DNA of 64,000 nt. Origin: Candidatus Parcubacteria bacterium. GTDB taxonomy: Bacteria > Patescibacteriota > Minisyncoccia > Phycocordibacterales > Phycocordibacteraceae. The notes under the pieces are model-generated. The model made no database searches. It saw nothing but the letters and a program-made list of their open reading frames with translations, and had not been told where the DNA came from. Positions 326 through 51,679 of the stretch are shown here, piece after piece. Every line of letters starts with the position of its first letter. Position 1 is the first letter of the stretch. Both the position numbers and the translations under genes were made by a program. Location: positions 52,260 to 116,259 of the forward strand of contig JAXDML010000010.1 of the NCBI GenBank assembly GCA_034666125.1, in the 5' to 3' direction.

Positions 326-381
326 AAAAAGAGTGCAGATTCCGCTTTTGGATTACGCGAAGCGGAATCTGCACTCTTTTT
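326..381. terminator. Perfect 22-bp inverted repeat hairpin (aaaaagagtgcagattccgctt / aagcggaatctgcactcttttt), loop 12 nt; bidirectional intrinsic terminator after gatB
   Basis: Read directly: 326-347 pairs with 360-381. The A-run and T-run are built into the stem ends, so it can terminate on either strand. Confidence 0.65.
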
Positions 382-385
382 CTAC

Positions 386-1324
386 ATGTTGATATCTATT
401 CTATTCGAGACGAGAAACCCTTATACTACATGTATGGATGAACTTACTATCGGAGACAAGATCTACATCTCGTCCAAGCGTGCAGCAGCGATTACGGGCT
501 ACGCTAAAGACTATGTGGGCCAGCTATGCCGGGAAGGGCATGTAGAGGCGAAAATGGTTGGCCGAAGCTGGTACGTGCTCGAAACAAGCATACGTGAGCA
601 TCGCTTCGGAAAGACGGAGGAAAAGCTCCCTGGCGCCGCCGAACAGGACGCGGAGAACGCAAGGATCGCCGCAGCGACCGGTGCGCTTATCGATGTCACC
701 GATGCCGTTGTTTCGCATATGCCGGAAACCTGGGAAGCGTCGAGGTATCTGCCGGAAGAGGCGCCAAGGATGCCCGAGTTGGCGCCTCCTGCTCCCGTAC
801 TCGAGGCCCGTGAAACTATGCAGACATTAGATATGTCGGAAAGCCGGGAATCGCTTGCGGAAATGCAGGCCGCCTGGAAAGCATGGTTCGAGGGTGAACG
901 CGAGCCGCTTTTGGAATCTCCTGAGGTGATTGACGCCAGGGAAGAAGAAAGGGAAGAAGAAAGGGAAGAAGAGGTGATCGAAGACGAGCCGGAGCTTCCT
1001 GAGGCTTCAGAGGAAGCCGTACCGGTGATGGTCCACAGAATTCCCGAGGAACGTCCGCAGACCATCGAAAGGCCCCAAAGGGCGGCCGTTCGGCCTCAGC
1101 TTTTTCAGCAGCCTGTTGCCGCCACGCCGCCACGCCGCGCGCGTCGTCCAAAGTCACGCAAGAACAGCGGATCAGGTTCGAATCTCGTCGTCGTAGCCCT
1201 TATGGTCGCCTTTGCCGGGATAGTTATCTCAATCGGGATCATAGGCTCGGGATTCGCGGACACCTATGTGCAAAGCAACGCCATTACGAAGTTTCTCGGA
1301 GGCACGAGTTCTATAAGTAAGTAG
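386..1324 (+). CDS. Membrane-tethered HTH protein: N-terminal excisionase/MerR-like HTH (HTH_17-like), acidic EEREEEREEE repeat, Pro/Arg-rich linker, C-terminal TM anchor; probable true start ATG 434 (MDELTIGDK)
   Basis: 'ISSKRAAAITGYAKDYVGQLCREGHVEAKMVGRSWYVLETSIREH' fits the excisionase-family HTH consensus. Hydrophobic stretch LVVVALMVAFAGIVISIGIIGSGF near the C-terminus, preceded by RRARRPKSRK. N-terminus is paralogous to the N-terminus of the giant ORF at 1839. Confidence 0.6.
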   Translation: MLISILFETRNPYTTCMDELTIGDKIYISSKRAAAITGYAKDYVGQLCREGHVEAKMVGRSWYVLETSIREHRFGKTEEKLPGAAEQDAENARIAAATGALIDVTDAVVSHMPETWEASRYLPEEAPRMPELAPPAPVLEARETMQTLDMSESRESLAEMQAAWKAWFEGEREPLLESPEVIDAREEEREEEREEEVIEDEPELPEASEEAVPVMVHRIPEERPQTIERPQRAAVRPQLFQQPVAATPPRRARRPKSRKNSGSGSNLVVVALMVAFAGIVISIGIIGSGFADTYVQSNAITKFLGGTSSISK

Positions 1325-1397
1325 TTCTATATTGCATTTCTTGTCTCGGCTATACAAGAAAACGAAGGAATCATACAGATTGGTGCATTAAGTTGGA

Positions 1398-1425
1398 AAA
1401 AGCAGAAGCATTCGCTTCTGCTTTC
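1398..1425 (+). terminator. Hairpin aaaagcagaagc-attc-gcttctgctttc followed by T-rich tract; candidate terminator of the 386..1324 gene
   Basis: Inverted repeat gcagaagc/gcttctgc at 1402-1421, read directly. Confidence 0.4.
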
Positions 1426-1838
1426 CTCGTTCCACTCACCCGAAAGTGACGCTGTAAGGAGCGTAAAGGCTTCGAAGAGAATTGCAGCATGCAATAAATC
1501 GCTCCGGCCTATGAGTCACGTCACGCGGAGAAGGGCTCATTTGCTTTATCCTGCGCTGTGTGGACAAGGGTATCCAAGGCTCCGCTTTTTCAAAATCTCT
1601 ATTTGCTTCGACTTCATGAAGCGCGGGACATTTTTTGTTCGAGCCTAAACAATCCGGAACAGGTCATAGCTCGGAAGATTTTTCTCAAATTTTGATCCTC
1701 GATTGCTCCAAAAAGCTCATTTTCGAGGATTGCAACATCGACACGCAAGTGCGGCAGACTTATCCCCAAACGAGCTCAAAAATCCTTAGTCGATTGCCGT
1801 TATACCAAGCTATTATTTAGGTAAATCGGATATCCGAC

Positions 1839-4800
1839 ATGTCCTCGCTCCTTACTAACGATCTCATCTCAACGAAAGAGGCCTCGATCATTTCGGGATA
1901 CAATCCCGATTACCTCGCGCGTCTTTGTCGTGCCGGAGTGATTGCCGGAAAGAGGATCGGACGCACCTGGTGTCTCGAGCGAACGTCGCTCGACACGTTC
2001 ATTCGAACGCAACAAGCGCATAAGCAGGAGATTGCGCATACGCTTTCGGAAACGCGGAGCCGTGAATACCGCGAGGCGCATCAGGAGCCTGTCACTCCGG
2101 GAGTTCCTTCAGCAGAAAAAGCTGCTCCTGCCGCGTACGTGCCGCTCGTGCCCGCTCGAAGGAGTGTTCCGATACACCTGCGTCCCGGCTTCGCCTTCGC
2201 TCTCGCGCTCTGGGTGGTCGCTTTGAGCGGATATGCGTCGGTCTCGGACGCTTTTATAGGTACGGCACGGGATGCAGGCCGGCTTGCATACGATCTTGCG
2301 GTGGTGCGGGCCATAACGTACGACGGGCCGGCAGTATTCCTCGCCTCACGCGACGAGCCGGCGCCTAACGTGCCCGACCTGCATATTCCCGATCAGGACG
2401 TTCTTGTCGCGGAAGCCGCGCAGGTAGCGGCAAGCGATGTCACGCTTCCGGACATGGCTACGCGCCATAACGAATCGCGCAGCGCCGCAACGTTGGCGGG
2501 ATCGGTCGGCGCGTCGCGCATCGCTGCCGTATCGGCTTTCTTCCGTACGCCCGGCGCTTCGTTCGCGATGTTGCGCGATACCGGCGTCGGCGCATACGTG
2601 CGCATGGGAGCATCGATCGAGCGTTTCGCGCATGACACGCTCGTGCAGTATGCGACGACGGTTGAATCTGCCGGAGCGGATTCGCTCGAGCTCGCTTCCG
2701 CCGCGCGCGACATGGCCGCCTTCGCGCCCGCGCGCGCGGAGGCGATACGCATCGCGTACGAACGCGGCATCTATGCTTGGGTCGAAAGGACGCCGGATGT
2801 CGCACGCGGGATCACCGAGAGGACGCTCGCGCTCGGCGACGCGCTCGGGGGCGGGGCGACGCTCGCGCCAAACGTCGTCGGGAACGCGTCGCGCGATGTC
2901 GCGATCGCCGTGGCTGCGGGCATTGCCACTCCTACGCGAGGCCCTGTCGATAGCACGACGCCGACCGGGATAGCTGCTGCTTCCGACGCGCATCTCGCTG
3001 CGGGAGTCGCGGCCGCACCGGCAGCGCTCGTGCGCAGCCTGGAGCAGTCGGTCTTCTCCGCCGTGCGCGCCGCGCATATCGCGCTCACGGGAGGCGTACG
3101 CTTGCTTGCCGGTCTTTTCGACGACCTCTCCGTGGCGCTTACGTCTGCCCCCGAGAGGATCGTGACGATACTCACCCCGGCCGCATCCGGTCCAGGCGCC
3201 TATACCGCCACTACCACGAACACGACGTACGTCGACCGGTTCATCGGGGACACGACCGTCGTACGTAACTACTACCCGCAGACGTTCCTCGGGGGCGTGA
3301 GCCGGGAGGAGATAGACGCGCGGTTCACCGCCTTCGACAGCCTCATGCGCCGGAATATCGAATCTGCGCTCCGAAGACGGGGCGGAGGAGGGGGCGGCGG
3401 AGGCGGAGGCGGCAGCATTTCTCTGAATGATCCCACCTTCACGGGTACCCTCACGACGGACGACGCGGTCGTGAACAATAACCTTTCGGTAGGGAACGAT
3501 ACGACCATTGGCGGGAACCTGGATGTCGGCGGCGACGCGAATGTCACCGGCACGCTCACCGTGGGGTCCTTCAGCGTCTCGAACCTTTCGGCGAACAATA
3601 CGGTCGTGGCACCCCGCTTCATCGGCACGTCCACGAGCGAAGCGTCGGTATTCCCGAACATCATCGCGACGACGTCGGTCACGGACAACGCGACGTCCAC
3701 GAACCTGTACGCGACGAACTTCGGCATCGGGAACTCGTACTTCACGTCGCTCCTCGGCAACGGCCTCGTGAACACGGGAGGCATGCTGTCAGTATCGACC
3801 TCGTCGCTCGCGAGCGGATTCTTCCAGAACGGCGGGAACGCCTTCGGCGTCCCCGCCGTTCTCGGCACGACCGACAATCAGCCGCTCTCGCTCATCACGA
3901 ACAACACGACGGCTGCGACCATCCTCGGGAACGGCAATGTCGGCATCGGCACGACGTCGCCCTTTACCAAGCTCTCGGTCGGCGGCGATGCGTACGTCGG
4001 CGGGAACGTGACCGCGACCGGCACGGCGACCGTGCAGGGCCTTTCGATCGGATCGCTTTCCGGGTTCCTCAAGGCGACCGCCGGCACGGTGGCGACCTCG
4101 CTCGTGTCGCTCGCCTCCGACATCACGGGCACGCTTCCGGTCGGGAACGGCGGCACGGGCTCGACTTCGCTCACCGGACTCCTCGTCGGCAACGGCGCGA
4201 GCCCGGTGCAGACGGCATCGGTCACCGCGCCGCTCGTACTCACCGGCACGACGCTTTCCATAAACCAGGCGAACGCGTCGCAGGACGGTTATCTTTCTTC
4301 GACCGACTGGAACACTTTCAACAACAAGATCGCCTCGACCTCGCTTTCGGGTGGCACGGGCATCTCGTACAACCCCGCGACCGGCGTCATCACGAACACG
4401 GGCGTCACGTCGACGACAGGCGACTGGACCGGCACCTTCGACGGGCAGGAGGGAAGCTACTATCTCGCGAACTCGTTCAGTACGACCTCCGCCGCGTACT
4501 TCCTCTCGCAGAACGGCGGCTCGGCATTCTCGACCACTTCGGCCAATTACTGGCTCTCCACGAAATCCACGTCCGACCTTGCCGAGGGCTCGAACCTGTA
4601 CTACACCGACGGACGCGTAAATACGTTCATCAATGGATCTTCCACGATCCCAAAGACATACACGAATAACGTATTCACAGGCGGAAATACGTTCACGAAC
4701 GCCAGTTCCACCGATCTCTACGTAGCAAACACCTTCCGCGGCGCCGGCCTCACTGCCTGCAACACTTCGGCCAGCAAGCTTCTCTATGACGCCGTTACCG

Positions 4801-7800
4801 GCCAATTCAACTGCGGCGCGGATGCGGGAGCGGGCGGCGGTATCACTGCCATCGGTGCCCAGTACTCGCCATATCAGACAGGCTCAACCCAGACCTTCGC
4901 GACCACGAGCGACACGAACATAGGCCTCGTGATCACGTCGGCGGGCGACACCCATACCTTCACCCCGACCTTCACGGGCACGCTTGCGGTGCCCCGCGGC
5001 GGTACGGGAAGCAGCACGCTCTCCGGCATCCTTCTTGGCAATGGTGCGGGCCCCGTACAGACGCTCGGTATCGGTCCGGGACTCGCGCTTGCGGGCGGAA
5101 CGCTCTCCGTTTCCACGACTTCCTTCTCCGGTCCCGGCTCGAATTTCAATGCGGACCTCCTGGATGGCCAGGACGGGACCTACTACCTGGACCGCGCCAA
5201 CCATACCGGTACTCAAACCGCTTCGACCATCAGCGACTTCAATGCTGCAGTGAATACGTATATACACGGATCGACCACTATCCCGAAGACGTATACCGCG
5301 AACACCTTCACGGCCACGCAAACGTTCGGAAATCTCGTTGCGACGAATGCCACCACCACCTCCCTCGGCCTGAACAGCGAAACCTTCACCGACCTCACCG
5401 GTTCGGGACTTCTCAACGTCGGCGGTACTTTGACGCTGGACCGCACCGGGGACTGGACCGGCACGCTCGACGGACAGGAAGGCGCATACTACCTCGCCCG
5501 CGCGAATCACACGGGGACGCAACTCGCGTCGACCATCAGCGATTTCTCCACGACCGCCCGGGGGCTTTTCGCCGCCACCTATCCAATTCAATACGACAGC
5601 GGCACGGGCTTGTTCAACCTCGCTTTCGGCACCACTACCTCGAATACCTGGGCGGGCACGCAGACCTTCAACAACCTCGTCGCCACCAACGCGACCACGA
5701 CCAGCTTCGGCATCAACGGGGAGACCTTCACCGATCTGACGGGCTCGGGACTATCGAACGTCGGAGGGGTCCTCACGGTCTCCACATCCTCGCTCGCGAA
5801 CCTGAATGCCGATCTCCTCGATGGGCTCGACTCCACGTATTTCCTCGCGAACTCCTTCTCGACCACGTCCGCGAACCACTGGCTCACGACCAAGTCGACC
5901 ACGAACCTCGCTGAAGGATCGAACCTCTACTACACCGACGCACGGGTGAATAGCTATATACACGGCTCGACGACAATACCGAAGACCTATACGAACAATA
6001 CGTTCACTGGCACCCAGACCTTCAACAACCTCGTCGCCACGAACGCCACGACCACCTCGCTCGCCGTGGGCACGGACTACATCACCGACCTTACGGGCTC
6101 GGGCCTCACCATCACCGGAAATGCGCTCACATTGGATCGCACCGGGGACTGGACCGGTACGTTCGACGGCCAGGAAGGTACCTATTATCTAAACCGAGCG
6201 AATCACAGCGGTACGCAGCTCGCTTCCACGATCAGCGACTTCTCCGAAGCCACCGACGACCGCGTCGCCGTCCTCATACAAAACGGCACTGGCATCTCAT
6301 GGTCATACAACGACGGGGCGAACACTTTCACGCCGACGGTCACGCTCGCGCCGTTTACGACCACGAATCTCGCTGAGGGCAGCAATCTGTATTACACGGA
6401 CGGACGCGTTGCCTCGTACATCAACGCTTCCACCACCATATTGAACGACTCTACCGAAGCGGGACTTGAGACCTTCCTCACCGATGTCGCGAATGTCTTC
6501 ACCAACAACGATGGCGCGCTCTCAGACGACGACCTCAGCAATAATTCGATAGAGGATCTCTCCGACGTCGCCGCGATGACCGAGAACTATGGCGACCTCC
6601 TCGGGTGGAACGGTACGACCTGGACGGACTTCGCGACGAGTTCGCTAGGACTTATTACTTCAGCGGTCCAGAATATCGGTCCCGCCGGCCAAACTGCGGA
6701 CGGCCCCACGGTCACCTTCGCCACTACCACCTCAACCACCAACGGCATCACTTCGGCCCTCACCGTCACTGGCTCGGGAGATACCCTCACGTTCACCCCG
6801 TCGCAATCAGGAACCTTAACGGTTCCGGGCGGCGGCACCGGCGCCTCCTCCTTCACCGCCGGGAATCTCATATATGGCGCAGGCACCGGCGCGCTTCAAA
6901 GCGTCGCGACCTCCTCGGTCTCAAGCGGCACCGGCATCTCCTTCACTGGAACCCCTGGCGCGCTTGTCGGCGGAACGCCGCTCACGATCAGCAATACCGG
7001 CGTGCTCTCCTTCAACGGACGCACGGGAGCTGTTACACCGCAGTCAGGCGATTACACGACGACCATCGTGGCCGAAGGCACGAACCTTTACTACACCGAC
7101 GCACGGGTGAACAGCTACATACACGGCTCGACGACAATACCGAAGACCTATACCGCGAACACCTTCACTGCGCTTAATACATTCAGTGCGGGCGCTTCGA
7201 CTACCCAACTCACCGCTACTGGCAACGCGTATCTCGCGACGGCGGGAGGGAACGTAAGCGTCGGCGGCACTACTGCAAGCGAGAAGCTCACCGTCACCGG
7301 CAACATACTCTCGAGCAATCTTGCAGGCGTCGGCAACCGGTGCGTATACGCCGATCTCAACGGCGTCCTGCGCGTGGCGGCAGACAACTGCGGTCTCGCA
7401 GGCGCAGGCGGCGACGACCTGGGCAATCACATCGCTACGCAGAACATCCAGCTCAACAACAACTGGCTCTCGAACGACGGAGGAAGCGAAGGCGTCAGCA
7501 TAGATAACAGCGGAAACGTGACTATGTCCGGCGATGCTTCGGCGGCATCGTTCACCCGCGGCGGCGATACGATCACCGATTTCACGGGTACGGGACTTAC
7601 GGTGATAAGCGGCGCGCTCACCGTCTCGACCTCGTCGCTTGCGAACCTGAATGCCGATCTTTTGGATAGCCTTGATTCGACGTATTTCCTTGCCAATTCC
7701 TTCAGCACTACTTCCGCCAACTACTGGCTTACCACCAAGGATACCGACGATCTCGCGGAGGGAAGCACCAACCTCTACTACACCGACGGCCGCGTGAACA

Positions 7801-10800
7801 CCTTTATCGCGGGTTCCACTACCATCCCGAAGACCTACACGAACAACACATTCGGAGGCACCCAGACCTTCAACAACCTTCTCGCCACGAACGCTACGAC
7901 CACCAGCTTCGGCATCAACTCCGAGACCTTCACCGACCTCACTGGTTCAGGACTCCTCAACGTCGGCGGCACTTTGACGCTGGACCGCACGGGAAACTGG
8001 ACGGGGACGTTCGACGGGCAGGAAGGAACCTACTACCTCGCACGCGCGAATCACACGGGGACCCAACTCGCGTCGACCATTAGTGACTTCAACGATGCGG
8101 TCGCCAACTATGTCAACGCTTCCTCGACTATCCTCAACGACTCCACCGAAGCTGGCCTCGAAGCTTTCCTCACGGACGTCACGAACGTATTCACGAACAA
8201 CGACGGCGCGCTCAACGACGACGATTTGACCAACAATTCGATCGAAGACCTCTCTGATGTCGCGACCATGACCGAGAACTATGGCGATCTCTTGTACTGG
8301 AACGGTACCGCATGGGCAGACATTGCGACGAGTTCCTTGGGACTCCCAACCGCGAGCATCACGAACATCGGCCCTACCGGCCAGATGGCCGACGGTCCGA
8401 ATGTGACGCTTGCGACTTCAACGAGCGCATTCAACGGCCTCACTTCTTCGCTCACCATCACAGGAAGCGGCGATACTCTTACCTTCGTTCCGGCACTCTC
8501 CGGCACCCTCAACAACGCTGGCCTCACTAACTCCACCGTCTCGTACGGCGGCGTGACGCTTTCTCTCGGTGGAAGCGATGCAACTCCGGCCTTCGACCTG
8601 ACCGATGCGACGAACCTTCCGATCGTCGGCGGCACGACCGGTACTCTGACGGTCCCGCGCGGCGGCACGGGCCAGGTTTCGTTCACCGCCAGCAACCTTA
8701 TATATGGAGCAGGTACGGGGGCACTCCAAAGCGTCGCTACTACCACCGTCTCAGCAACCGGGCCCCTCTCCTTCACCGCGAATCCCGTCGTCATCGGCGC
8801 ATCCCCGATCACGCTCTCTCTGGGGACGGTCGATATATCGTCGAATACGAACCTCGCGGCGACGTATCCGATCGTTCTCACCGGGGATACGCTCTCCCTC
8901 GCCTTCGGCACCACCACCTCGAACACCTGGGCGGGTACCCAGACGTTCAACAACCTCGTCGCGACGAACGCCACGACAACATCCCTCGGCCTTAACGGCG
9001 AAACCTTCACCGACCTCACTGGCAGCGGCCTCTTGAACGTCGGTGGCACTTTGACGTTGGACCGCACCGGCGACTGGACGGGGACGTTCGACGGGCAGGA
9101 GGGAAGTTATTACTTAAATCGTGCCAACCATACTGGTACTCAAGCTGCTTCCACGATCAGCGACTTCTCCGAAGCCACCGACGACCGTGTCGCCGTCCTC
9201 ATACAAAACGGTACTGGTATCAGCTGGTCATACAACGATGGCGCGAACACCTTCACGCCGACCGTGACCCTCGCACCGTTCACTACCACGAACCTCGCGG
9301 AAGGCACGAATCTCTACTACACCGATGCACGGGTGAATTCCTTCGTGCACTCTTCGACCACCATCCCGAAAACCTACACTGCGAACACCTTTACGGGAGC
9401 ACAGACGTTTAACGGCGGACTCACCCTCGGAACCTTGAACGGCCCGCTGCAAGCGAACAACGGAATTGTCTCTGCCACAACCAGCATTGGCGTTCTGTAT
9501 GGAGGAACCGGCCTCACTATCGCGCCGACGTACGGACAGCTTTTGGTAGGGAATTCAAGCGGAGGGTACACCCTTACCTCAACCTCTTCACTCGGGCTTA
9601 TCACCCAGGCAGTCCAAAACATCGGCCCGGCAGGGCAGATGGCCGACGGGCCGAACGTCACGTTCGCTACTTCGACTGCGTCCTTTAACGGCCTTACCCA
9701 GGGCATAACCATCACCGGAAGCGGTGACACCATCACGTTCACGCCATCCCTGTCGGGTACTCTCGGTGTCGGCGGGGGAGGCACCGGCGCTGCCTCCTTT
9801 GCGTACGGTCTCGTGCTTTCTCCGGGAGGCACCGGAGCCCTCACCAATATAGCGACTTCCTCCCTCGGCCTCCTCACAACGAACGTCGCCGAAGGAAGCA
9901 ATCTGTACTTCACCGATGAACGCGTCGACGACCGCGTCGCCGTCCTCATACAAAACGGTACGGGCATCTCCTGGAGCTACAACGACGGTGCCAACGCCTT
10001 TACGCCGACCGTGACCTTGGCGCCCTTTACGACGACCAATCTCGCAGAAGGCAGCAATCTGTATTATACGGATGCACGTGTCGCCTCATATATAAACGCC
10101 TCCACCACCATACTCAACGACTCCACAGAAGCTGGTCTTGAAGCCTTCCTCACGGACGTCACGAACGTGTTCACCAACAACGACGGTACCTTAGCCGATG
10201 ACGATCTCACCAACAACAGCATCGAAGACTTGAGTGACGTCGCGGCAATGACCGAGAACTATGGCGATCTCCTCTATTGGAACGGCAGTGCGTGGGCGGA
10301 TATCGCCACTTCCTCGCTCGGACTCCTCTCCACAGCCGTCACTAACATCGGTCCTGCGGGCCAGATGGCGGACGGCCCCACAGTCACCTTCGCCACCACC
10401 ACCTCGACCACCAACGGCATCACCTCGGCGCTCACCATCACGGGTTCGGGAGATACCCTCACCTTTACTCCGTCGCAGTCGGGAACTCTCACTGTTCCTG
10501 GAGGCGGCACGGGAGCCACCTCCTTCACCGCCGGGAACCTCGTCTATGGCACGGGAACCGGCGCACTTCAGAGCGTGGCGACGACGACTCTCTCGGGAAA
10601 TTCCCAGATCGCGCTCTCTCAGCCAGTGGTCGTGATCGGCGCGTCACCTTCTGTCCTCTCTATCACCGCCGACTCCATCGGAGACGCGCAGCTCGCCTTC
10701 AACACCGGGCAGAACCTGACGACCGCGTCGAGCCCGACGTTCGCGAGCCTTACGCTCACGAATCCGCTCGCGGTAACCTCAGGCGGTACCGGGTGGGCGG

Positions 10801-13800
10801 CCATACAGGCAGGTGCGATCCCGTATGGAAACGGTACGGGAGCGCTTGCGACCACGACTGCGGGCACCAACGGAAATATCCTCGCCCTCTTGAACGGCAT
10901 TCCGACCTGGACCTCGACCTCGACATTCCTGCTTGAGACGGAAGTCGATACCGAAGCCGAACTCGAGACGCTCCTCACCGATGTTACGAACGTCTTCACG
11001 AACAACGACGGCGCTCTTGCTGACGACGACCTCACTAATAACTCCATCGAAGACCTCTCGGACGTCGCCGCCATGACCGAGAACTATGGCGACCTGCTCT
11101 ATTGGAACGGAACCGCGTGGGCGGATATCGCCACTAGTTCCCTCGGCCTCGTGACAAGCGCGCTCACCTCGATCGGTCCGGCAGGGCAGCAACAGACCGG
11201 TCCTGCCATCACCCTCGCAAGCTCCACTGCAGGAACGGACTTCACCATCACCGCCGCAGGGAACACAGTGACGTTCAATCTCCCGACCGCTTCGGCTACG
11301 AATCGTGGCTTGCTATCAAGCGCCGATTGGTCGACCTTCAACGGCAAGGAGAACGTGCTTTCCTTCACCTATCCGCTGGTGCGCACGGTTAACAACATCT
11401 CCCTCGCCTTCGGCACGACGACCTCGAACACCTGGGCGGGCACCCAGACGTTCAACAACCTCGTCGCCACGAACGCAACCACGACTTCCTTCGCTATCGG
11501 AAGCGATTACATCACCGACCTCACAGGCTCCGGTCTCACGGTGACCGGAAACGCACTCACCCTCGACCGCACCGGCGACTGGACCGGTACCTTCGACGGC
11601 CAAGAAGGCACGTACTATCTCGCACGCGCCAATCACACCGGGACGCAACTGGCGAGTACGATCAGCGACTTCTCCGAAGCCACCGACGACCGCGTCGCCG
11701 TCCTCATCCAGAACGGCACCGGCATCTCGTGGAGCTACAACGACGGCGCGAACACGTTTACGCCGACCGTGACCCTCGCACCGTTCACCACAACCAACCT
11801 CGCGGAAGGCACGAACCTCTATTACACGGATGCACGGGTGAACAGCTATATCGCGGCCTCCACCACCATCCCGAAGACGTATACCTCTAATACGTTCACC
11901 GGGCTCCAGACCCTGAACGGAGGACTCACGCTCGGCACACTCAACGGCCCGCTCCAAGCGAACGTGGGCGTCGTCTCCGCAACGACCAGCATTGGCGTTC
12001 TGTATGGAGGAACCGGCCTCACTATCGCGCCGACGTACGGACAGCTCCTCGTGGGCAATGCCTCGGGAGGGTATACGCTGACGGCGACGTCGAGCTTGGG
12101 ACTGGCCTCCGCAGCGACCGCCTTCATCCAGAACGGCAACTCGTTCGGCGCGACCGCCGTACTTGGTACCAACGACGCGAACGACCTCCAGTTCGAGACG
12201 AGCGGTACGACGAAACTCACGATCCTCCAGAACGGCAACGTCGGCATCGGCACGACGACTCCGTCGAATCTTTTGCATGTCTTTTCTTCCTCCGCAAGCC
12301 CCCGTATTCGCGCAGAAACTTCACTCACGAGCGGATCGAGCGGATTTACCGCAGCAGGAGAAAGTACCACGGGTTTCGCGTCGTTCAGTTGGAATAATTC
12401 AGGCGCAGCGAATTCGACTTTCTTAACGTTACCGAATGCCGGACTCGTACGGGCAGGTTCAGGAGCATCCGGTGGGCTGGTTCTGGTCAATGAAAATACT
12501 TCCGCGCCCATTATCTTTGCGACGGGAGGAAGTTCCTTCAGCAACGAACGGTTGCGCATCGACAGCGCAGGCAATGTCGGTATCGGCACGACTACGCCGT
12601 TCACGATGCTTTCGGTAAATGGGAACATAGCAGGGAATCATCTCGTCCCGAACGGCGCCTACACGGATAACCTGTCTCCGTACGATCTCGGCGCGATCGG
12701 GAGCCGATGGAATGCGCTCTGGGCCGGAACGCTCAACATCGGCACAAGCACGTGGAGCATCAATAACGGGAGCGATGGAAGGCTCAGTGTGTTCGATGCG
12801 GCATCAGGCGGCGGCACTGAACGATTCTCAATACTTACGAACGGTAACGTCGGCATAGGCTCGACCACGCCATTCGCCAAACTGTCGCTTGCTGGGGGCA
12901 ATTTCTGGCAGACAGCCGGTGATCCGGTGATCGCAAGCAGTACTGACACGACCGCTGCGGTGAACGGAGTCTATGTCGCCGGCAGATATGCCTACCTGAC
13001 GCCGAACTCCGCGAGCCCCGGGCTCGTCATCATGGATGTTTCCAATCCGAGAAGTCCCGCTCAGGTCGGCTCAGCTAACACGACCGGTAACGCTAAGAGG
13101 GTCGTTGTTTCCGGAAGGTACGCCTACGTGCTCTCGGCTCGGCTACACATCTTCGACGTCACGAATCCGGCGAGCCCTTCCGCGGTGGGGAACTACAATC
13201 CCGGTGTCAACATACCGAACGACATATGGGTGTCGGGCAAGTACGCTTACCTCGCACGCAGTAACTTCAGCACGGGCGCCGGTTCCCTGGCCATCGTAGA
13301 CCTTTCGAATCCTGCACTCCCGATAGCGGTCAGTAGTATAAACTCTCCGGACAGCACACGGCCTTTCAATTCCATTTATGTATCGGGCAGATATGCCTAC
13401 GTCGGAACGACGGAAGTATCCGGCACCACGGGCAGGCTCTATATTTATGACATTTCGAATCCGACCGCACCGAGCCTTGTTGGAACCTTCAACGCGACCA
13501 ACCGCGTGACCGGCGTCTATGTTTCGGGCAGATATGCCTACTTATCAGGACTCGGAACGACGTCGGGGCTCGAGATCGTGGACGTTTCAAATCCCGCGTC
13601 CCCAGCGCTTGCCGGTTCCTTCAACACGGCGAATGACGCTATGCGCGTACAGGTGTCGGGCAACTACGCCTACATCGCCGAGGCCGGGACCACGGACGGT
13701 ATCGTCGTGGTCGACGTGTCGCAACCGGGCAGTCCAGTGCAGGTCGGGTCCTACACCACCGCCAATAGCGCCAATAACCTCTACGTGTCAGGCAAGTACA

Positions 13801-16800
13801 TCTACGTCGCGACCAACGGCACTACTGGCGGATTCCAGGTACTTGATGCGGGAGGAGCGCAGCTGCCGCTTGCAAGTATAGGAAATATAAATACCAACCT
13901 GCTTACAGTGGACGAGAACGCGAACTTCGGCGGCGAAATCTATGCGCAAGGCGGCATCAACGCCGGTATCTCCGGCATCTTCTCGCGTGGCACAATCTCC
14001 GCGTACGTCGCATCGTCGACTCAAACCAATCCCACGGTCGCCAACTTCATGGGTGGTTCGGTCGGCATCGGTACGACAACGCCATATGCGGCGCTTTCGG
14101 TGGTCGGGATCAACACCGCCGTGCCGACGCTCTCGATCAAACCGGCGGCGTCGCAAACAGCAAATATTCTCGACCTTTACACGTTCGGCTCACTTACGTC
14201 AGTCATCGATGCGGCGGGTAACTGGGGCATCAGTACCACCTCTCCCTGGAAAACGCTCTCGGTCGGTGGTGATTTTTCGCTCACTGGCGCGTTCTTTGAT
14301 AGTGGAGCATCCTCGGGGACGAACGGCATGGTGCTCCAGACCACCGGGTCGGGCACGCAATGGGTCGCCACTTCGTCGCTCGGCATCAGCGCCGGCCTCA
14401 CGGGCTCCGGCTGCTGCGGTCAGGTCGCGTATTGGAACGGTGCGAGTTCCCTTACCGGTGACGCGGCCTTCACGTTCGACGGCACGAACCTCTCGCTCGG
14501 TACCGGCCAGTACCTGGTCACCGATTCGGAAGGCGCTCCCGGCTACTCCTGGACGGGGGACACGACGACCGGCATATATCACGCGGGTGCCAGCACGATC
14601 GGCTTCTCGACCGGCGGGATCGAACGGATGCGCATAGACGGGAACGGCTATCTCGGCATATCGACGACATCGCCGGGACAGATGCTATCGGTGGAAGGAG
14701 ACGCATACATAAGCGGCGCCACGGTGATCGGGGATACCGGGCTTCCGCTCGTCGGTCCAGCGCTTACCGTGAACGGCTTTACGGGCATCGCTTCCTCATC
14801 GCCCTGGGGCCTGCTCTCGGTGAATCCGAACGCAATCGGTACCGCTCCCTCCTTCGTCGTCGGTTCCTCGAGCGCAACGAACTTCATTGTCGCGAACGGC
14901 GGCAGCGTGGGGATCGGTATGACGGCACCCTCATCGCGGTTCCAGGTGGCCGATATCAATAGGTTGTCGGGCACGTCGGTAAGTTCGGCCGGTTTTGGAA
15001 ACACGAATCTCTCGGTCTACACGACTGATGCAGCAGCTACCAACGTGGGAGCCGTCATTGGGCTCGGAGGAGCGAACCTATACGGCGGTCTGAAGGGCGC
15101 AAGTCAGAGCGGCACTTCAGCCGGATACCTTGGCTTCTATACGAATTCCTTCAGTATCATCACTGGGAACACGTTCGCAGAGCGAGCCCGTATAACGTCT
15201 AGCGGCCAGCTTGGCATCGGAACGACCACGCCGTTCGGCCTGCTGGCGGTCGCCGGGCCTATCGCTGGCAATCATATCATCCCGAATGGTCCATATACCG
15301 ATAATCTTTCTGCGTACGACCTTGGCGCAACCGGAAGCCGCTGGAACGCGCTGTGGGCCGGTACGGTCAATATCGGCACGAGTACCTGGAGCATCAATAA
15401 TGGCAGCGATGGACGACTATCGTTCTTCGACGCCGCATCGGGCGGCGGGAACGAGCGCCTCTCCCTGCTTACGAACGGGAATGTCGGCATCGGTACGACT
15501 AGTCCTGCGGCCCGTCTCGCCATTACAAGCAATGCAGCCATTACAAGCGATAGCATCGATACGTACTTAGCAAACACCGTGAATGCTGGAACTGTGTCGG
15601 GTACGGATCGACTTATTACTGGCAACTATACTACGCTTTCCCCTACAGTTACGCTTGAAGGCGCTACCCTAAGCGCTATCGCAAATAAAACACTAGTTAA
15701 TGCTGGAAACGTTACTCTTGGCAGTACCGCGCTCTCTGGTGTTTCAGGAAGTCTCATTGGAGACTCTATAGAAGTTACCGGGAGCCCCATATTTAACGAC
15801 CCGGATGGTAACGACGAGCTGAATGCCACGTTTATCGGAACCCAATCTTATGTCAACCTTGTACCCTCGGTTACCAGTGTCTCAGGCGGTAACCTAGCTT
15901 CGTATGGAGGATTGTTCACTAACTCTTCTTCCAACAGTAGCGGCAACCTTGGTGCCGGCGCGTACGGAGTTTCAGCGTTAGTAGGTGGCAACCCTCTTGT
16001 TAATGGATATCGTTACGGTTTTTATTCCACAGTTTCAGGTACATCTAACGAAAACACGGGTTACTGGGGAGCCGTTAGTGGAGGCACGGGTTCAAACTAC
16101 GGCTCAACTCTTATTGTCAGCGGTGGAGCCGTCAGTAATTACGGAAACTACGTGGGCATAAGCGGAGGTAATAACAATTACGGGTCGTATATATCCCTAC
16201 AAGCTAGTTCTACCAACTATGCGATTTATGCGACAGGTGGCGCGCAAAGCTATTTTTCTGGGAACGTCGGTATTGGTACCACCACTCCGTGGGCAACACT
16301 TGCGGTAAATCCAGTCGCTGGGGGAGCATCGAACGCTTTCGCCATCGGCTCTTCAACAGCTACGAGGTTCTTGGTGACTAACGGTGGAAATGTCGGTATC
16401 GGCACTACCACCCCAGGCACCCTCCTCTCGCTTGGAGACACCGGTGCGAACACAATCAATATTTCGGCTACGGCGACCTCGACATTCGGCAGCGGTATCA
16501 ACATCCGGACGGGCTGCTTTGCGGTGAACGGAGTGTGCGTCGGCGGAGGCGGAGGCGGGACGATAAACTCTGGAACGACCGGCCAGTTCCCGTACTACGC
16601 CGCGAACGGCACGACGCTCACGGCGACCTCGACGCTGCTCGTATCTACGGCATCGAACGTCGGTATCGGTACCACTACTCCTTCCGCACGACTCGCCATC
16701 ACGGGTACCGGTACGGGTACCGGACGAGCCTTCGCCATCGCGAACTCGTCCGACGCTGAACGGCTTTCGGTTCTCGATAACGGCAGTACCGCCATCATAA

Positions 16801-25538: not shown

Positions 25539-26375
25539 CTAAGCGGTTGTCGTAGATTGAGGTTCTACTTCAACCGACAAAGCCAGATGGTCCGAGCCGG
25601 AGGCGACGGTCTCTGCATGAACCCTGGTCCAGTGCGGCGATATGAAAATATGGTCGAGGGCTCTCTGAAGAAATCTAGGAAGGAAGACTGGGCAGGTCAG
25701 TTTCTCATCCGGGTCTGCAGATACGAGCCCTAACAACCTGAAGCTGGGGTTTGCATACAGTGCGGTTTCATTCTCATTCCAATCGCCCGCAAGGACGGCC
25801 TCATTTCCGAGTGCACGCTCCTTCGTAGTCATCTCTGCGATATACGCGAGCTGTTTGACGAACATGGCGGGATTCCGGTAAGTGAGGTGCACGCCGAATA
25901 TAGTTAGCGGTCTTGCCTTTAGGCGAATGCCCGCCATGCCGGCTCCGCCTCCCATGCTTGGGCGCTGGGGCATGGAACACGGAATGATCTCGCCCGGCTC
26001 TTTCGTTGCGACCACGATGGAAATGGTCGTGCCGGGGTAATGCTCGCTTAAACCCCATGCGATGGTCTGGAATCCCATAGCACGAAGCTCTCTTTCGATG
26101 CGCTCGTGGTACAGCTCGTATAGCGCCTCGTTAAGTATCAAGATATCCGGTGCTATACGCTGTATAAGCTCTAAATACGGGTCAAGATACTGATGCTTCT
26201 TCACATAGGCGATCCGCTTCCCCTTCGATATGCGGGAACTCCTGCCGCGCAGGAAAGGGAAGAACTCATACGTCAGTACGCCCCATCCATGCATGTGCAG
26301 ATGGCGCTTAAGGTTCGTGGCAAACCGATCCATGCCGGTGAAGCCGAAGGCAGTATTGATCGTCAGGATCTTCAT
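25539..26375 (-). CDS. Endonuclease/exonuclease/phosphatase (EEP) family protein
   Basis: 'DILILNE' (N-terminal catalytic Glu motif), 'GDWNE', 'SDHLAL' (catalytic His motif). 278 aa, no signal peptide. Confidence 0.75.
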   Translation of the reverse strand: MKILTINTAFGFTGMDRFATNLKRHLHMHGWGVLTYEFFPFLRGRSSRISKGKRIAYVKKHQYLDPYLELIQRIAPDILILNEALYELYHERIERELRAMGFQTIAWGLSEHYPGTTISIVVATKEPGEIIPCSMPQRPSMGGGAGMAGIRLKARPLTIFGVHLTYRNPAMFVKQLAYIAEMTTKERALGNEAVLAGDWNENETALYANPSFRLLGLVSADPDEKLTCPVFLPRFLQRALDHIFISPHWTRVHAETVASGSDHLALSVEVEPQSTTTA

Positions 26376-26387
26376 AGAAGCTAACCG

Positions 26388-27221
26388 CTAAGGACTTATT
26401 AGTTCCGATACGACTGCTAAGTGATCGGATCCGAACGATCTGTAGTGCGTATCGGATGCGCGCCATCCGGGAGGCAGGAATACGTGGTCGTAGTCGAACC
26501 GGAGGAACGTGGGCCCGAGGAGCGTAGTCGGTTGCTTGGTAACGGTCGATAATCCCAGCGCCCTGAATGAAGGAATGCGATCGAGGCCTTTCGCACGTTG
26601 GTTGAAGTCGCCCGCAAGGATGCATATTCGACCGTTGCTCCCTTCGGTCTTGTAGATGCCGATCAGGTCTTGAACCTGGCGTTCCGATAGGCTGCGTAGG
26701 CCCACGGTCAGATGCGCACCGACGATAGTCACCGCTTGTTTTTCAAGCCTCAATCCCGAGATGCCGGCACCGCCTGAGATCTGCTGGAGCTGCGTCATCG
26801 TCGGCGCGAATCCATCATCAAGGCACGGTAGGCGTGAAGCGACCACGGCCGTAGCCGTAAGGTGGGGAGGCTGCAAACTCTTGCCCCAACCGATATGAGC
26901 GAATCCTAACTCCTCAAGTCCTTTTCTCAAAGGTTCCTCGTGGATCTGATGCAGGATCTCGGTCAGTACGACGATGTCTGGCTTTTCTTCCGCAATGAGC
27001 GCAAGCACGGGACGTACTGTGCTATGCGCGGAGAAGAAGGCGATACCTTTCCGACCTGGCCCCGTATTGTAATTGAAAATACTCCCGAACCGGCCGCTGG
27101 TGAGTAGGTAGGGAAATATCTTCCAACCATAAAGCTTGATGAGCGAAGATAAACATCGGACCACTGAATCCGAACCCGGGATCCCGAGCGCGATATTCGC
27201 GGTCATGATCTTCAATGACAT
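26388..27221 (-). CDS. EEP family protein, paralog of 25539..26375
   Basis: 'DIVVLTE', 'GDFNQ', 'SDHLAV'. Start chosen at M9 (MSLKIMTANIALG) by alignment to the paralog; the ORF is open to 27245. Confidence 0.75.
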   Translation of the reverse strand: MSLKIMTANIALGIPGSDSVVRCLSSLIKLYGWKIFPYLLTSGRFGSIFNYNTGPGRKGIAFFSAHSTVRPVLALIAEEKPDIVVLTEILHQIHEEPLRKGLEELGFAHIGWGKSLQPPHLTATAVVASRLPCLDDGFAPTMTQLQQISGGAGISGLRLEKQAVTIVGAHLTVGLRSLSERQVQDLIGIYKTEGSNGRICILAGDFNQRAKGLDRIPSFRALGLSTVTKQPTTLLGPTFLRFDYDHVFLPPGWRASDTHYRSFGSDHLAVVSELISP

Positions 27222-27264
27222 GGAAAGATAGTAACACCGAGCCAACAGTTGCTATGCTGGAAAC

Positions 27265-50902: not shown

Positions 50903-51679
50903 TTAGCTCTCGATATCAACCTGCGCGGAGTCGCTGTTGTTGTTCTCGTTGCTTTCGCCCACGTCGCGGCCGCTGTCGACCGTGATGCGCGCCGTGCGGT
51001 TGTTGCCCGAGCGGGGCTCCGTGAAGCAGAGGGTGTAGTCCACGCGGTCGCCGGCACCGAGGGAGCGCTGATTCGATACCGTCCGCGAGAGAGCCGGAGA
51101 AGTGGGGAGGTCATATTCGAAGTCCCACTGGCCCGACGTGTTGGTACCGGCGTTGCGGACCTGGAACTGGATGCCTCCGTTCTCACCGTCAGGCACTTCG
51201 TTGCCGCGACGGAAGGAGGATACGCGGTCGCTCGTGCAGTATCCGACGGCGGTGATCTCGACGGTAAGGTCCGCACGGCCGTAGGGTGCCTGGGGCGGTA
51301 CCGTGACCGGTACGGTGACAGTACTCGGCTGGGTGTACGTGACAGTGCGCGTAGTAGCTGCAGGCGCCGCCGTGTATGTGGGAGTTACCGTAACGACGCT
51401 TGTCTCCGTCGACGTCGCGACGGGTTCGAAGGGAACGGATGTCTCCGTGACGACTACTACGGCTTCCGGTTCAGGCGCTTCCTCCGCCGGAGTAAAGACC
51501 GAAGAGAAGGAGACGGCGCCCGTGCCGAGGCGGTTGAGCGCGACGGGTACGAAGCGCGCCGCGTATATGGCGAGCCCGATGCCGATAAGGATAAGGACGA
51601 TGAAGCCCACGATCGCAAGGGCGCTGAGCGCCGCCTGCCGGCGGGGGGTCTTGTCAGTGGTCGTGGTGGTGATTTCCAT
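50903..51679 (-). CDS. Membrane-anchored surface protein with Thr/Val-rich linker and C-terminal beta-sandwich (CARDB-like?) domain
   Basis: TM 'ALAIVGFIVLILIGIGLAIYAA'; TVT-rich linker; C-terminal region of Asn/Gly-rich beta character. Confidence 0.45.
   Translation of the reverse strand: MEITTTTTDKTPRRQAALSALAIVGFIVLILIGIGLAIYAARFVPVALNRLGTGAVSFSSVFTPAEEAPEPEAVVVVTETSVPFEPVATSTETSVVTVTPTYTAAPAATTRTVTYTQPSTVTVPVTVPPQAPYGRADLTVEITAVGYCTSDRVSSFRRGNEVPDGENGGIQFQVRNAGTNTSGQWDFEYDLPTSPALSRTVSNQRSLGAGDRVDYTLCFTEPRSGNNRTARITVDSGRDVGESNENNNSDSAQVDIES

What the first reader, a model, noticed from the sequence alone, without database searches (positions are those of the whole stretch)
386..1324. Paralogous small HTH-TM protein immediately upstream of the giant gene
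The 312-aa protein has the same HTH_17-like N-terminus as the giant protein (compare ISSKRAAAITGYAKDYVGQLCREGHVEAKMVGRSWYV with ISTKEASIISGYNPDYLARLCRAGVIAGKRIGRTWCL). It then has an EEREEEREEE acidic repeat and a tail-anchor TM 20 residues from the C-terminus. Two tandem membrane-tethered HTH genes, one minimal and one gigantic, suggest a partner, decoy or dimerisation relationship. These HTHs typically dimerise.
Basis: seen in the sequence. Interest (0 to 1): 0.6.

Follow-up and report, generated by a model that had tools for sequence, protein, structure and literature searches.

The report
Membrane-tethered HTH gene pair, small plus giant
A small membrane-anchored protein and the 5,704-residue surface-fibre protein next to it share a DNA-binding-type head domain. 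The two genes sit together in hundreds of Parcubacteria species with conserved DNA motifs around them, so they look like an undescribed regulatory or tethering module for the giant gene.

Summary
The small gene is real, but it starts at ATG 434 (296 aa), not 386.

**Topology.** Both proteins place this domain in the cytoplasm ahead of a single membrane helix.

**Synteny.** The pair is almost obligatory.
- Starting from the small gene (genomes of different species), about 72 of 80 loci have the giant gene 260-1000 bp downstream.
- Starting from the giant gene (metagenome contigs), 70 of 71 loci with enough upstream DNA have the small gene upstream.

**Conserved DNA motifs at the locus.**
- An "S box" (CGAGACRAGA) lies in the small gene's promoter and, inverted, just after its stop codon. 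A third copy sits inside obg, held constant at synonymous codon positions.
- Before the giant ATG lies the block TAATTCGGATATCCGAC, with a DnaA-box-like TTATCCMCA further upstream.

**Best reading (inferred, not shown).** Two membrane-tethered DNA-binding paralogs with different specificities act on their own locus. A heterodimer or decoy model has no specific support, because the characterised relatives BldC and λ Xis bind DNA as head-to-tail multimers rather than as symmetric dimers. I found no description of this pair in the literature.

The parts
326..381 (+). gatB terminator hairpin (arms 330-345 and 362-377, followed by a T run). It separates gatB from the small gene.
   Evidence: Read directly from the sequence. 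ATG 386 lies immediately after it.
406..415 (+). S box CGAGACGAGA in the small-gene promoter, at -28..-19 from ATG 434.
   Evidence: One of only two exact CGAGACRAGA matches in the 64-kb window. It is conserved as c.AG.C.AGAaa at the same position in 81 loci. Exact matches: 30/81 and 19/66 in the two locus sets.
422..427 (+). -10 box TATACT of the small gene, at -12..-7 from the A of ATG 434. This implies a leaderless mRNA.
   Evidence: TATA.T is conserved at this position in 81 loci. The same TATACT-N6-9-ATG layout occurs at many other genes in the window.
434..1324 (+). Small gene, corrected CDS: 296 aa, S-type HTH-TM protein.
   Evidence: More than 1,500 full-length homologues, all unnamed ('hypothetical'); every organism label among the hits is Parcubacteria, Paceibacterota or Patescibacteria.
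434..610 (+). S-type winged HTH domain (aa 1-59).
938..972 (+). 12-nt tandem repeat (AGGGAAGAAGAA x2.9) encoding the REEE repeats inside the acidic linker.
   Evidence: The linker (aa 61-230) has 43 D/E against 16 K/R, pI 4.3.
1181..1252 (+). Transmembrane helix (aa 250-273), preceded by the basic juxtamembrane stretch PRRARRPKSRK.
   Evidence: Best 19-mer hydropathy 2.94. The juxtamembrane segment has 7 K/R and 0 D/E. AF2 models a helix at 250-271.
1253..1321 (+). Conserved 23-residue extracytoplasmic tail (..ADxY..NPIxxFLGGTSxxxK).
   Evidence: Alignments (G273 and G290 invariant).
1336..1362 (.). Inverted S box (the minus strand at 1339-1348 reads CGAGACAAGA) within an imperfect palindrome TTTCTTGTCTCGGCTATACAAGAAA, 12 nt after the stop codon.
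   Evidence: Exact inverted box in 59/79 and 50/68 loci. The first arm is invariant even in loci where no hairpin can form.
1399..1424 (+). Probable intrinsic terminator of the small gene (11-bp perfect stem AAAGCAGAAGC/GCTTCTGCTTT).
   Evidence: I4. Comparable GC-rich hairpins follow the S box in other loci.
1760..1768 (+). TTATCCCCA box (DnaA-box-like, TTATCCMCA) upstream of the giant-gene promoter.
   Evidence: Only match in the window. TATCCMCA is present in 70/72 and 78/80 loci. Usually one per intergenic region; density 1.82 per kb against 0.09 per kb in the background.
1811..1816 (+). -10-like hexamer TATTAT of the giant gene (consensus TAnnAT at -28..-23 from the ATG).
   Evidence: Position-wise conservation in 69 loci. 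It predicts a leader of about 16 nt.
1821..1838 (+). Conserved block (T)AAATCGGATATCCGAC abutting the giant ATG. It contains the palindrome TCGGATATCCGA (1826-1837).
   Evidence: Unique in the window. TCGGN4CCGA is present in 55/72 and 56/80 loci. The full TCGGWTATCCGA has 0 matches in 544 kb of flanking DNA.
1839..18953 (+). Giant gene (5704 aa). Order: G-type HTH (aa ~8-58), conserved helix, TM (aa ~117-135), repeat-rich extracellular region, LVIVD beta-propeller, Peptidase_S74 intramolecular chaperone, Pro-rich tail.
   Evidence: Identical to MEA2701859.1, a 'hypothetical protein' of a Candidatus Parcubacteria MAG.

Best explanation
**What it is.** The small gene and the giant gene form a two-gene module that recurs across many Paceibacteria (Parcubacteria) species and is not described in the literature I searched. 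Each protein starts with a paralogous winged-helix domain of the excisionase/BldC/MerR-like class. In each, that domain stays in the cytoplasm, tied to the membrane by one transmembrane helix.
- The small protein is C-tail-anchored through a roughly 190-residue acidic, mostly disordered linker.
- The giant protein has a signal-anchor helix followed by about 5,500 extracellular residues of fibre-like surface protein.

**How it most likely works.** I infer that both heads bind DNA, with different specificities, at conserved sites in their own locus.
- The nearly invariant S-type head would recognise the S box CGAGACRAGA. This box occurs in the small gene's promoter spacer, inverted in its 3' region, and inside obg.
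- The G-type head would recognise the TCGG-N4-CCGA / TATCC elements at the giant gene's transcription and translation start.
- The outcome would be feedback control of the small gene and of the very costly giant gene. It could also hold this chromosomal region at the membrane, where the giant protein must be inserted and exported.

**Shown:** paralogy, fold class, topology, obligatory synteny, and conservation and locus-specificity of the motifs.

**Inferred:** that the heads bind DNA at all, which head binds which motif, and the regulatory outcome.
For: **Paralogy**
-.

**Fold**
- pLDDT is above 90 for aa 1-58.

**Topology**
- A basic stretch precedes the TM in both proteins.

**Synteny**
- The order secA-obg-gatB-small-gap-giant is seen in L001, L003 and L005.
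- About 72 of 80 species-level loci contain both genes. The reciprocal search gives 70 of 71.

**Two separate lineages**
- Own-profile scores separate cleanly from cross-profile scores.

**Cis elements**
- The only two exact S boxes in 64 kb flank the small gene.
- In an independent metagenome set, S-box hits cluster at three positions only: about -1.9 kb in obg, the promoter, and the 3' end of the small gene.
- In obg the H-L-V-S codons are CAT / CTC or CTT / GTC / TCG in 67/68, 68/68, 64/65 and 67/68 species. Neighbouring His, Val and Ser codons are mixed. This is nucleotide-level selection.
- The first arm of the 3' S box is invariant even where no hairpin can form. It is therefore a sequence-specific site and not a generic terminator.
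- The block before the giant ATG is conserved in about 60 of 72 species and has no match in 544 kb of flanking DNA.

**Protein and site conservation run in parallel**
- S HTH: 82% identity, with near-invariant S boxes. G HTH: 55% identity, with a more variable palindrome.
Against: - No DNA-binding test is possible with these tools.
- The assignment of the S head to the S box and the G head to the palindrome rests only on proximity and on parallel conservation.
- The outer TCGG/CCGA is invariant and the central 4 nt vary. That pattern fits an RNA hairpin (-4.2 kcal/mol) at the 5' end of a roughly 16-nt leader as well as it fits a protein operator.
- Some 3' S-box copies keep arm complementarity through double changes or G-U pairs (L016, L075, L031, L067). 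This hints at an RNA-level role.
- TTATCCACA is the classical DnaA box, so DnaA and not these proteins may bind it.
- The promoter copy of the S box is only moderately conserved (exact in 30/81 and 19/66 loci).
- Pfam HTH_17 is below threshold for both proteins.
- Characterised members of this fold class often read DNA shape rather than a strict consensus (PMC11963761).
Confidence: 0.5

Rival explanations
1. Partner, decoy or heterodimer model. The small protein's HTH pairs with or titrates the giant protein's HTH, and that protein-protein contact is the point of the pairing.
For: - The pairing is almost obligatory.
- Both heads are held at the same membrane face.
- Relatives of this fold make wing-to-HTH contacts between neighbouring protomers when assembled on DNA (PMC11963761). 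Mixed S/G filaments on DNA are therefore conceivable.
Against: - BldC, one of the two closest folds, is monomeric off DNA, and no MerR-type coiled coil is present.
- The S and G heads are distinct lineages with different recognition-helix residues.
- Two different motif sets are conserved at the two genes.
- No evidence of contact was obtained, because no multimer prediction tool was available.
Confidence: 0.1
2. Protein-adaptor model (RodZ-like). The cytoplasmic wHTH domains do not bind DNA. They dock onto a conserved cytoplasmic partner such as a cytoskeletal, Sec/SRP or divisome component, positioning the giant fibre. Other factors serve the conserved DNA motifs: DnaA at TTATCCMCA, an mRNA-stabilising 5' hairpin at the giant leader, and RNA elements at the S boxes.
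For: - The HTH / basic juxtamembrane / TM layout is that of RodZ (my own knowledge).
- The extreme conservation of the S head (82%) would also fit a universal protein partner.
- The giant leader can form a hairpin about 3-4 nt from the predicted 5' end. A 17-kb mRNA would benefit from protection against 5'-end-dependent decay.
- Some 3' S-box palindromes show compensatory or wobble changes.
- TTATCCACA is the DnaA-box consensus.
Against: - Every close structural neighbour is a DNA binder.
- There is no RodZ-type (Xre) HTH or DUF4115 match.
- The S box is locus-specific and lies in untranscribed promoter DNA in one of its three copies.
- The first arm of the S box is invariant where no hairpin exists.
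- The hairpin is weak (-4.2 kcal/mol).
Confidence: 0.2
3. Signal-transducing membrane-bound transcription factor. The small protein works like a ToxR/CadC-type or proteolytically released regulator. Its conserved 23-residue external tail senses the state of the giant fibre or of the envelope or host contact, and this changes what its HTH does at the promoters of the small and giant genes.
For: - The external tail and the region around the TM are conserved (G271, G273, G290 and NPIxxFLGGTS).
- Conserved cytoplasmic motifs (TWExPxY, MQxAWKEWF) could be an interaction or processing region.
- The gene is linked to a surface protein.
Against: - The tail is very short for a sensor.
- No protease or partner gene is conserved beside the pair.
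- Nothing distinguishes this from plain autoregulation. It is a refinement of the best explanation more than an alternative to it.
Confidence: 0.15
4. Adjacent paralogues with no functional coupling. The two genes simply derive from an old tandem duplication of an HTH-TM cassette.
For: - Tandem paralogues are common.
- The genes have separate promoters, with a terminator between them.
Against: - Adjacency, order, orientation and a 260-1200 bp gap are kept across loci whose small proteins are only 30-45% identical. There is one exception in 71 loci in the reciprocal test.
- This is far beyond what neutral retention of gene order would give in these streamlined genomes.
Confidence: 0.05

Closest known systems
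BldC (Streptomyces), phage and ICE excisionases (Pukovnik Xis, lambda Xis, Tn916 Xis, RdfS): HTH_17 / MerR-like minimal winged-helix proteins
   Different: Those proteins are small soluble proteins of 50-90 aa. Many are tied to integrases or mobile elements. Here the domain is fused to a long acidic linker plus a C-terminal TM, or to a TM plus a 5,500-aa surface fibre. The genes sit in a fixed housekeeping neighbourhood (secA-obg-gatB). The Pfam threshold is not reached.
ToxR / CadC / TcpP-type membrane-bound one-component transcription regulators
   Same: Bitopic, N-in topology with a cytoplasmic N-terminal winged-helix DNA-binding domain, a linker, one TM and an outside portion. This is the working principle I propose: a DNA-binding head that acts while tethered to the membrane.
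   Different: They use a different wHTH class (OmpR/PhoB-type Trans_reg_C). They carry a sizeable periplasmic sensor domain. There is no paired giant paralogue.
RodZ
   Same: N-terminal HTH, basic juxtamembrane segment, a single TM, cytoplasmic head.
   Different: RodZ has an Xre-type HTH that binds MreB rather than DNA, and a periplasmic DUF4115 domain. Neither is detected here.
RacA / Noc (proteins that tether specific chromosomal sites to the cell envelope)
   Same: RacA's N-terminal domain is a MerR-like wHTH and is among the structural matches. The idea that several copies of a short motif in one region are used to hold DNA at the membrane matches the three S boxes spread over about 2.8 kb.
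   Different: RacA reaches the membrane through DivIVA and binds about 25 sites near the origin. Noc uses an amphipathic helix. Here the tether would be an integral TM, and the sites are confined to a single locus.

Membership tests
Pfam HTH_17 (PF12728) | Score at or above the Pfam gathering threshold (27 bits). | tested here: not met
   18.9 bits (small) and 20.0 bits (giant N-terminus). A few homologues carry a precomputed PF12728 hit (P0039, P0088, P0110; 'weak' on the L003 giant).
Excisionase/BldC-type minimal winged helix (MerR-like superfamily) | Fold: N-terminal beta strand(s), helix-turn-helix, beta-hairpin wing, C-terminal helix, about 50-60 residues. | tested here: met
MerR-family transcription regulators (sensu stricto) | A long C-terminal coiled-coil dimerisation helix and an effector-binding region directly after the wHTH. 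| tested here: not met
   After residue 59 comes a low-confidence acidic linker with only short helices (68-81, 135-154, 163-177), then a TM. There is no MerR Pfam or NCBIfam hit.
Recombination directionality factor / excisionase (functional class) | Encoded in a mobile element next to a cognate integrase. | tested here: not met
   The chromosomal context secA-obg-gatB-small-giant is conserved in the loci whose genes were listed, and the obg motif lies about 1.8-1.9 kb upstream in 68 of the genome loci. No integrase was found among the genes called in those three loci or among the annotated ORFs of the 64-kb window.
RodZ | Xre-type HTH (HTH_25) plus the periplasmic DUF4115 domain. | tested here: not met
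   Pfam and NCBIfam scans give only HTH_17/excise-type weak hits. The external part is only 23 residues.
ToxR/CadC-like membrane-bound regulators | OmpR/PhoB-type wHTH (Trans_reg_C) and a periplasmic sensor domain. | tested here: not met
   No Trans_reg_C hit. The N-in bitopic topology is shared, so it may work like one without being a member.
Tail-anchored membrane proteins | A single TM within about 30 residues of the C-terminus, with no N-terminal signal sequence. | tested here: met
   TM at aa 250-273 of 296 with a 23-residue tail. The N-terminus is a folded, basic (pI 8.9) HTH domain.
Sequence-specific DNA-binding protein | Demonstrated binding to a defined DNA site. | not testable with these tools
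   Only indirect support: the fold class and locus-specific conserved motifs.

The most novel reading that the evidence does not exclude
**A self-tethering giant gene.**

- The G-type HTH is the first part of the 5,704-aa protein to leave the ribosome. It would bind the operator at its own transcription and translation start while transcription and translation are still coupled.
- The signal-anchor helix would then insert into the membrane. The 17-kb gene would stay held at the membrane for co-transcriptional, co-translational export, and further initiation would be blocked.
- The small paralogue would pre-position the locus by clamping the three S boxes (obg, its own promoter, its own 3' end) to the membrane through its long acidic linker.

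This would be a dedicated, locus-specific chromosome-to-membrane tether built into a secreted protein and its partner.
Probability: 0.15. Interest if true: 0.85.

Novelty: new variant of a known kind. Interest (0 to 1): 0.65.

Why it matters
- Giant surface proteins are a hallmark of ultra-small, host-dependent CPR bacteria. How such costly genes are controlled and exported is unknown.
- Here a giant fibre protein carries a DNA-binding-type domain on its cytoplasmic end. It is always accompanied by a small membrane-anchored paralogue, with lineage-wide conserved DNA sites. One of these sites is maintained by selection on synonymous codon positions inside an essential GTPase gene.
- This gives a concrete, testable handle on gene regulation in organisms that cannot yet be grown or manipulated: two roughly 60-residue domains and three short DNA motifs.
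- It would also add the excisionase/BldC fold to the small set of DNA-binding domains known to work while tethered to a membrane.

Tried and rejected
- **Word-indexed search with the giant N-terminus.** It found one hit only and was uninformative. The exhaustive representative search replaced it.
- **Exact look-ups.** The small protein (296-aa or 312-aa form) is not in the 15-billion-protein collection, and the giant protein has no encoding contig on record. The source annotation of the small gene could therefore not be seen.
- **Rfam on the whole window.** Only one tRNA was found, so there is no known RNA family in the 515-nt gap.
- **Profile search against PDB sequences.** Only spurious TM or low-complexity matches came up.
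- **PHROGs.** Only weak excisionase hits for the giant N-terminus.
- **Literature.** No paper describes this pair. The giant-gene preprint (10.1101/2023.11.21.568195) has no mention of 'HTH' or 'helix-turn-helix' in its main text.
- **oriC idea for the long AT-rich gap.** Rejected: there is usually exactly one DnaA-box-like site per gap.
- **3' S box as just the terminator.** Rejected: the first arm is invariant where no stem exists, and a separate GC-rich terminator follows.
- **Leaderless start as a special feature of the small gene.** Rejected: it is the norm in this genome.
- **S box as a general promoter element.** Rejected for this window: there are only two exact copies in 64 kb.
- **Co-variation between palindrome variants and G-type recognition-helix residues.** I looked by eye and saw no clean pattern.
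- **afdb50 fold library.** It was unavailable.
Full report
**1. The observation**

The window is from a Parcubacteria/Paceibacteria (CPR) genome of about 60% GC.
- The giant protein is identical to MEA2701859.1, a 'hypothetical protein' of a Candidatus Parcubacteria MAG on a 252,821-bp contig.
- The neighbours are housekeeping genes: gatB, gap, rpiB, rpe, split transketolase, rpsB, tsf, pheST, gyrB, dnaE.

ORF 386..1324 exists, but the true start is ATG 434, giving 296 aa.
- Every aligned homologue starts at the equivalent Met, as M(D/N)E(L/V/I)....
- A conserved S box (406-415) and a -10 box (422-427) lie between the two ATGs.
- ATG 386 abuts the gatB terminator.

The N-terminal similarity to the giant protein is significant.
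- BLASTP gives 39% identity over 66 aa, E 9e-11, and E 2e-9 against all 5,704 residues with nothing else significant.
- A profile of the small-protein domain hits only these two ORFs in the six-frame translation of the window.

- The REEE repeat is encoded by a perfect 12-nt tandem repeat at 938-972.
- The TM helix is aa 250-273, followed by 23 residues. It is preceded by a stretch with 7 K/R and no acidic residue, so the HTH is cytoplasmic.
- The giant protein has its own TM at about aa 117-135, after a basic PARRSVPIHLR segment.

**2. What the domain is**

Pfam HTH_17 is below threshold for both proteins (18.9 and 20.0 bits against 27). NCBIfam 'excise' is weak.

An AlphaFold2 model built on 108 homologues gives pLDDT 91-97 for residues 1-58, with the order b-b-a-a-b-b-a.
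- Foldseek agrees.
- All of these neighbours are DNA-binding domains.

In this class BldC is a monomer in solution and multimerises head-to-tail only on DNA, and RdfS forms head-to-tail oligomers (PMC11963761). The MerR coiled coil is absent.

**3. The family and the pairing**

The small protein has more than 1,500 full-length homologues of 243-374 aa among those listed. None has a name, and every organism label is Parcubacteria, Paceibacterota or Patescibacteria.

Conservation is very uneven: 82% mean pairwise identity in the HTH against 31% elsewhere. Outside the HTH there are short conserved motifs: TWExPxY, (L)xDMQxAWKEWF, IDAREE, the juxtamembrane basic patch, the TM, and the external tail ..ADxY..NPIxxFLGGTSxxxK.

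Gene neighbourhoods of three homologues all read secA-obg-gatB-small-gap-giant. Their giant genes encode 5,746 aa, 8,258 aa and a product cut at 2,417 aa by the contig end. All three giants begin with the same HTH.

Larger samples give the same picture.
- In 80 loci from genomes of different species, nearly every locus with enough downstream DNA has a long ORF starting with the G-type HTH 260-1000 bp after the small gene.
- The two HTH types separate cleanly. S scores 108-139 bits and G 74-149 bits on their own profiles, and 24-55 bits on the other.
- In the reciprocal test, I started from the giant N-terminus in an independent metagenome collection. 70 of the 71 loci with enough upstream DNA carry the small gene 264-1202 bp upstream. 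The exception (L108) has unrelated upstream DNA.
- An exhaustive search with giant aa 1-135 finds 1,909 representative proteins at E<=1e-3 (392 at E<=1e-10), with lengths up to 7,275 aa. In the listed hits the match begins within about 125 residues of the N-terminus, and where it begins later there are usually two matched stretches, consistent with a tandem HTH (L060).

The giant protein itself carries an LVIVD beta-propeller and a Peptidase_S74 intramolecular-chaperone domain. From what is known of the Peptidase_S74 family in phage tail fibres and endosialidases, I infer that it is a trimeric, membrane-anchored surface fibre.

**4. Conserved DNA around the two genes (found in passing, but bearing on mechanism)**

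*(a) The S box, CGAGAC(G/A)AGA(T).*
- In the window, the only two exact matches in 64 kb flank the small gene: 406-415 on the plus strand, at -28..-19 from the start, and 1339-1348 on the minus strand, 12 nt after the stop.
- Across loci the inverted 3' copy is exact in 59/79 and 50/68. The promoter copy is looser.
- A third copy lies inside obg, about 1.8-1.9 kb upstream and outside this window. The codons for H-L-V-S are CAT / CTC or CTT / GTC / TCG in 67/68, 68/68, 64/65 and 67/68 species. The same amino acids a few codons away use mixed synonymous codons: His CAC 41 / CAT 27; Val GTA 25 / GTG 12 / GTC 3; Ser TCG 9 / TCA 7. This shows selection on the nucleotide sequence itself.
- In the independent metagenome set, S-box hits fall at those three positions and almost nowhere else.
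- The 3' copy is often part of an imperfect palindrome. However, its first arm is invariant even in loci where no stem can form, and a separate GC-rich terminator follows (window 1399-1424). It is therefore a sequence-specific site and not just a terminator.
- A few loci keep arm complementarity by double changes or G-U pairs (L016, L075, L031, L067). An RNA-level role cannot be excluded.

*(b) The giant-gene promoter.*
- Directly before the ATG lies TAATTCGG(A/T)TATCCGAC (window 1821-1838; palindrome 1826-1837).
- It is preceded by a TAnnAT -10 box at -28..-23, a CCGAAAT-like box, and a TTATCC(A/C)CA box.
- TCGGN4CCGA is present in 55/72 and 56/80 loci. TATCCMCA is present in 70/72 and 78/80. 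TCGGWTATCCGA has no match in 544 kb of flanking sequence.
- The outer TCGG/CCGA is fixed and the central 4 nt vary. This fits either a two-half-site operator or a small RNA hairpin (-4.2 kcal/mol) 3-4 nt from the predicted 5' end of a roughly 16-nt leader.
- TTATCCACA is the DnaA-box consensus. There is normally one per gap, so this is not an origin.

*(c) Leaderless transcripts.*
- Most genes in the window have TATACT 6-9 nt before the ATG and no Shine-Dalgarno sequence.
- The small gene's leaderless layout is therefore ordinary here, and the giant gene's conserved leader is the exception.

**5. Mechanism**

*Shown:*
- Two paralogous excisionase/BldC-type heads.
- Both heads cytoplasmic and membrane-tethered.
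- Obligatory adjacency of the two genes.
- Two distinct, locus-specific sets of conserved DNA motifs.

*Inferred (confidence about 0.5):*
- The heads bind DNA. S recognises the S boxes and G recognises the TCGG-N4-CCGA / TATCC elements.
- This gives feedback control of both genes and possibly holds the locus at the membrane.

*Support for the S/G assignment is only indirect:*
- Proximity of each head to its candidate site.
- A parallel between protein and site conservation. The S head and S boxes are nearly invariant, while the G head and the palindrome are more variable.

*Rivals:*
- HTH-HTH partner or decoy model: 0.1.
- RodZ-like protein adaptor, with the motifs served by DnaA and RNA structures: 0.2.
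- ToxR-like or proteolytically released signal transducer, which refines the best model more than it competes with it: 0.15.
- No functional coupling: 0.05.

**6. Comparison with known systems, and novelty**

- The domain belongs by fold to the MerR-like/excisionase winged-helix superfamily, although it does not reach the Pfam HTH_17 threshold.
- It fails the defining features of MerR regulators (no coiled coil), recombination directionality factors (no integrase or mobile element), RodZ (wrong HTH class, no DUF4115) and ToxR/CadC (wrong HTH class, no sensor domain).
- It works most like a ToxR-type membrane-bound DNA binder or a RacA/Noc-type chromosome tether.
- I found no description of the pair in the literature searched. 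All database names are 'hypothetical protein'.
- I rate it a new variant of a known kind, with interest 0.65.
- The most novel reading not excluded is a giant gene that tethers itself to the membrane through the first domain of its own product, helped by the small paralogue (probability about 0.15).

Noticed in passing
Loci L001-L086, about 1.8-1.9 kb upstream of the small gene (inside obg; not in the window, which starts in gatB): The obg codons for H-L-V-S are fixed as CAT CTC/CTT GTC TCG in 64-68 of 65-68 species, while neighbouring codons for the same amino acids vary freely. The fixed stretch is an inverted S box (ATCTCGTCTCG), followed by ..ACAAGA, which resembles the palindrome after the small gene. 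This is nucleotide-level selection inside an essential gene.
   Followed up: partly
window 1760-1838: The giant-gene promoter block is conserved across about 70 species: a TTATCCMCA (DnaA-box-like) site, a CCGAAAT-like box, a TAnnAT -10 box, then TAATTCGGWTATCCGAC directly before the ATG. In a minority of loci GAC is followed by CTG, TTG or no obvious start codon, so the giant gene's start may be non-canonical there.
   Followed up: partly
window, starts of rpe (21427), dagK (27760), fba (29240), SLT (31029), gyrB (48714), thrS (57419) and others: A (GC)TATACT -10 box lies 6-9 nt upstream of the ATG with no Shine-Dalgarno sequence. Leaderless or near-leaderless mRNAs appear to be the rule in this genome.
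   Followed up: no
window 1325-1838 and equivalent gaps in other loci: The gap between the small and giant genes is unusually long for a streamlined genome (median 597 nt). It is AT-rich (38% GC against 55% in the flanks). Apart from the elements at its two ends, it is not conserved in sequence.
   Followed up: partly
window 1839-18953: The giant protein has a run of 11 glycines at about aa 525-535, long near-identical internal repeats, a Peptidase_S74 autoprocessing chaperone domain about 370 residues before the C-terminus, and a PEPEPTP-type proline-rich tail. The coding strand has strongly negative GC skew (about -0.16 from 4 to 12 kb).
   Followed up: no
L060:5163-5582 and proteins P0126, P0130, P0181: Some giant homologues carry two G-type HTH domains in tandem at the N-terminus.
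   Followed up: no
window 434-1324: Neither the 296-aa nor the 312-aa form of the small protein is present as an exact sequence in the 15-billion-protein collection, although the adjacent giant protein is. The small gene may have been missed or called with another start in the source annotation.
   Followed up: partly
record titles of L015, L016, L024, L029, L031 and others: Many contigs carrying this Paceibacteria-type locus are labelled 'uncultured Candidatus Saccharibacteria', and one is labelled 'Bacillota bacterium'. These are probably mislabelled or mis-binned MAGs.
   Followed up: no
window 25539-27245 (- strand): Two adjacent paralogous Exo_endo_phos (EEP) family genes of 278 and 285 aa.
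   Followed up: no
window 32468-35720 and 52641-55611: Several sizeable ORFs (320, 765, 362 and 723 aa) have no Pfam match. A sortase gene (51803-52480) and a CARDB-domain gene (50903-51679, minus strand) lie next to the second group, which suggests another surface-protein cluster.
   Followed up: no
L008 and L027 (same MAG, RYN_391): Two copies of the obg-gatB-small region occur in one MAG. The second small protein is 50% identical to the query over its N-terminal half only. This could be strain heterogeneity or a true second paralogue. A subfamily with a divergent C-terminal half also appears (P0034, P0041, P0047, P0062, P0072).
   Followed up: no
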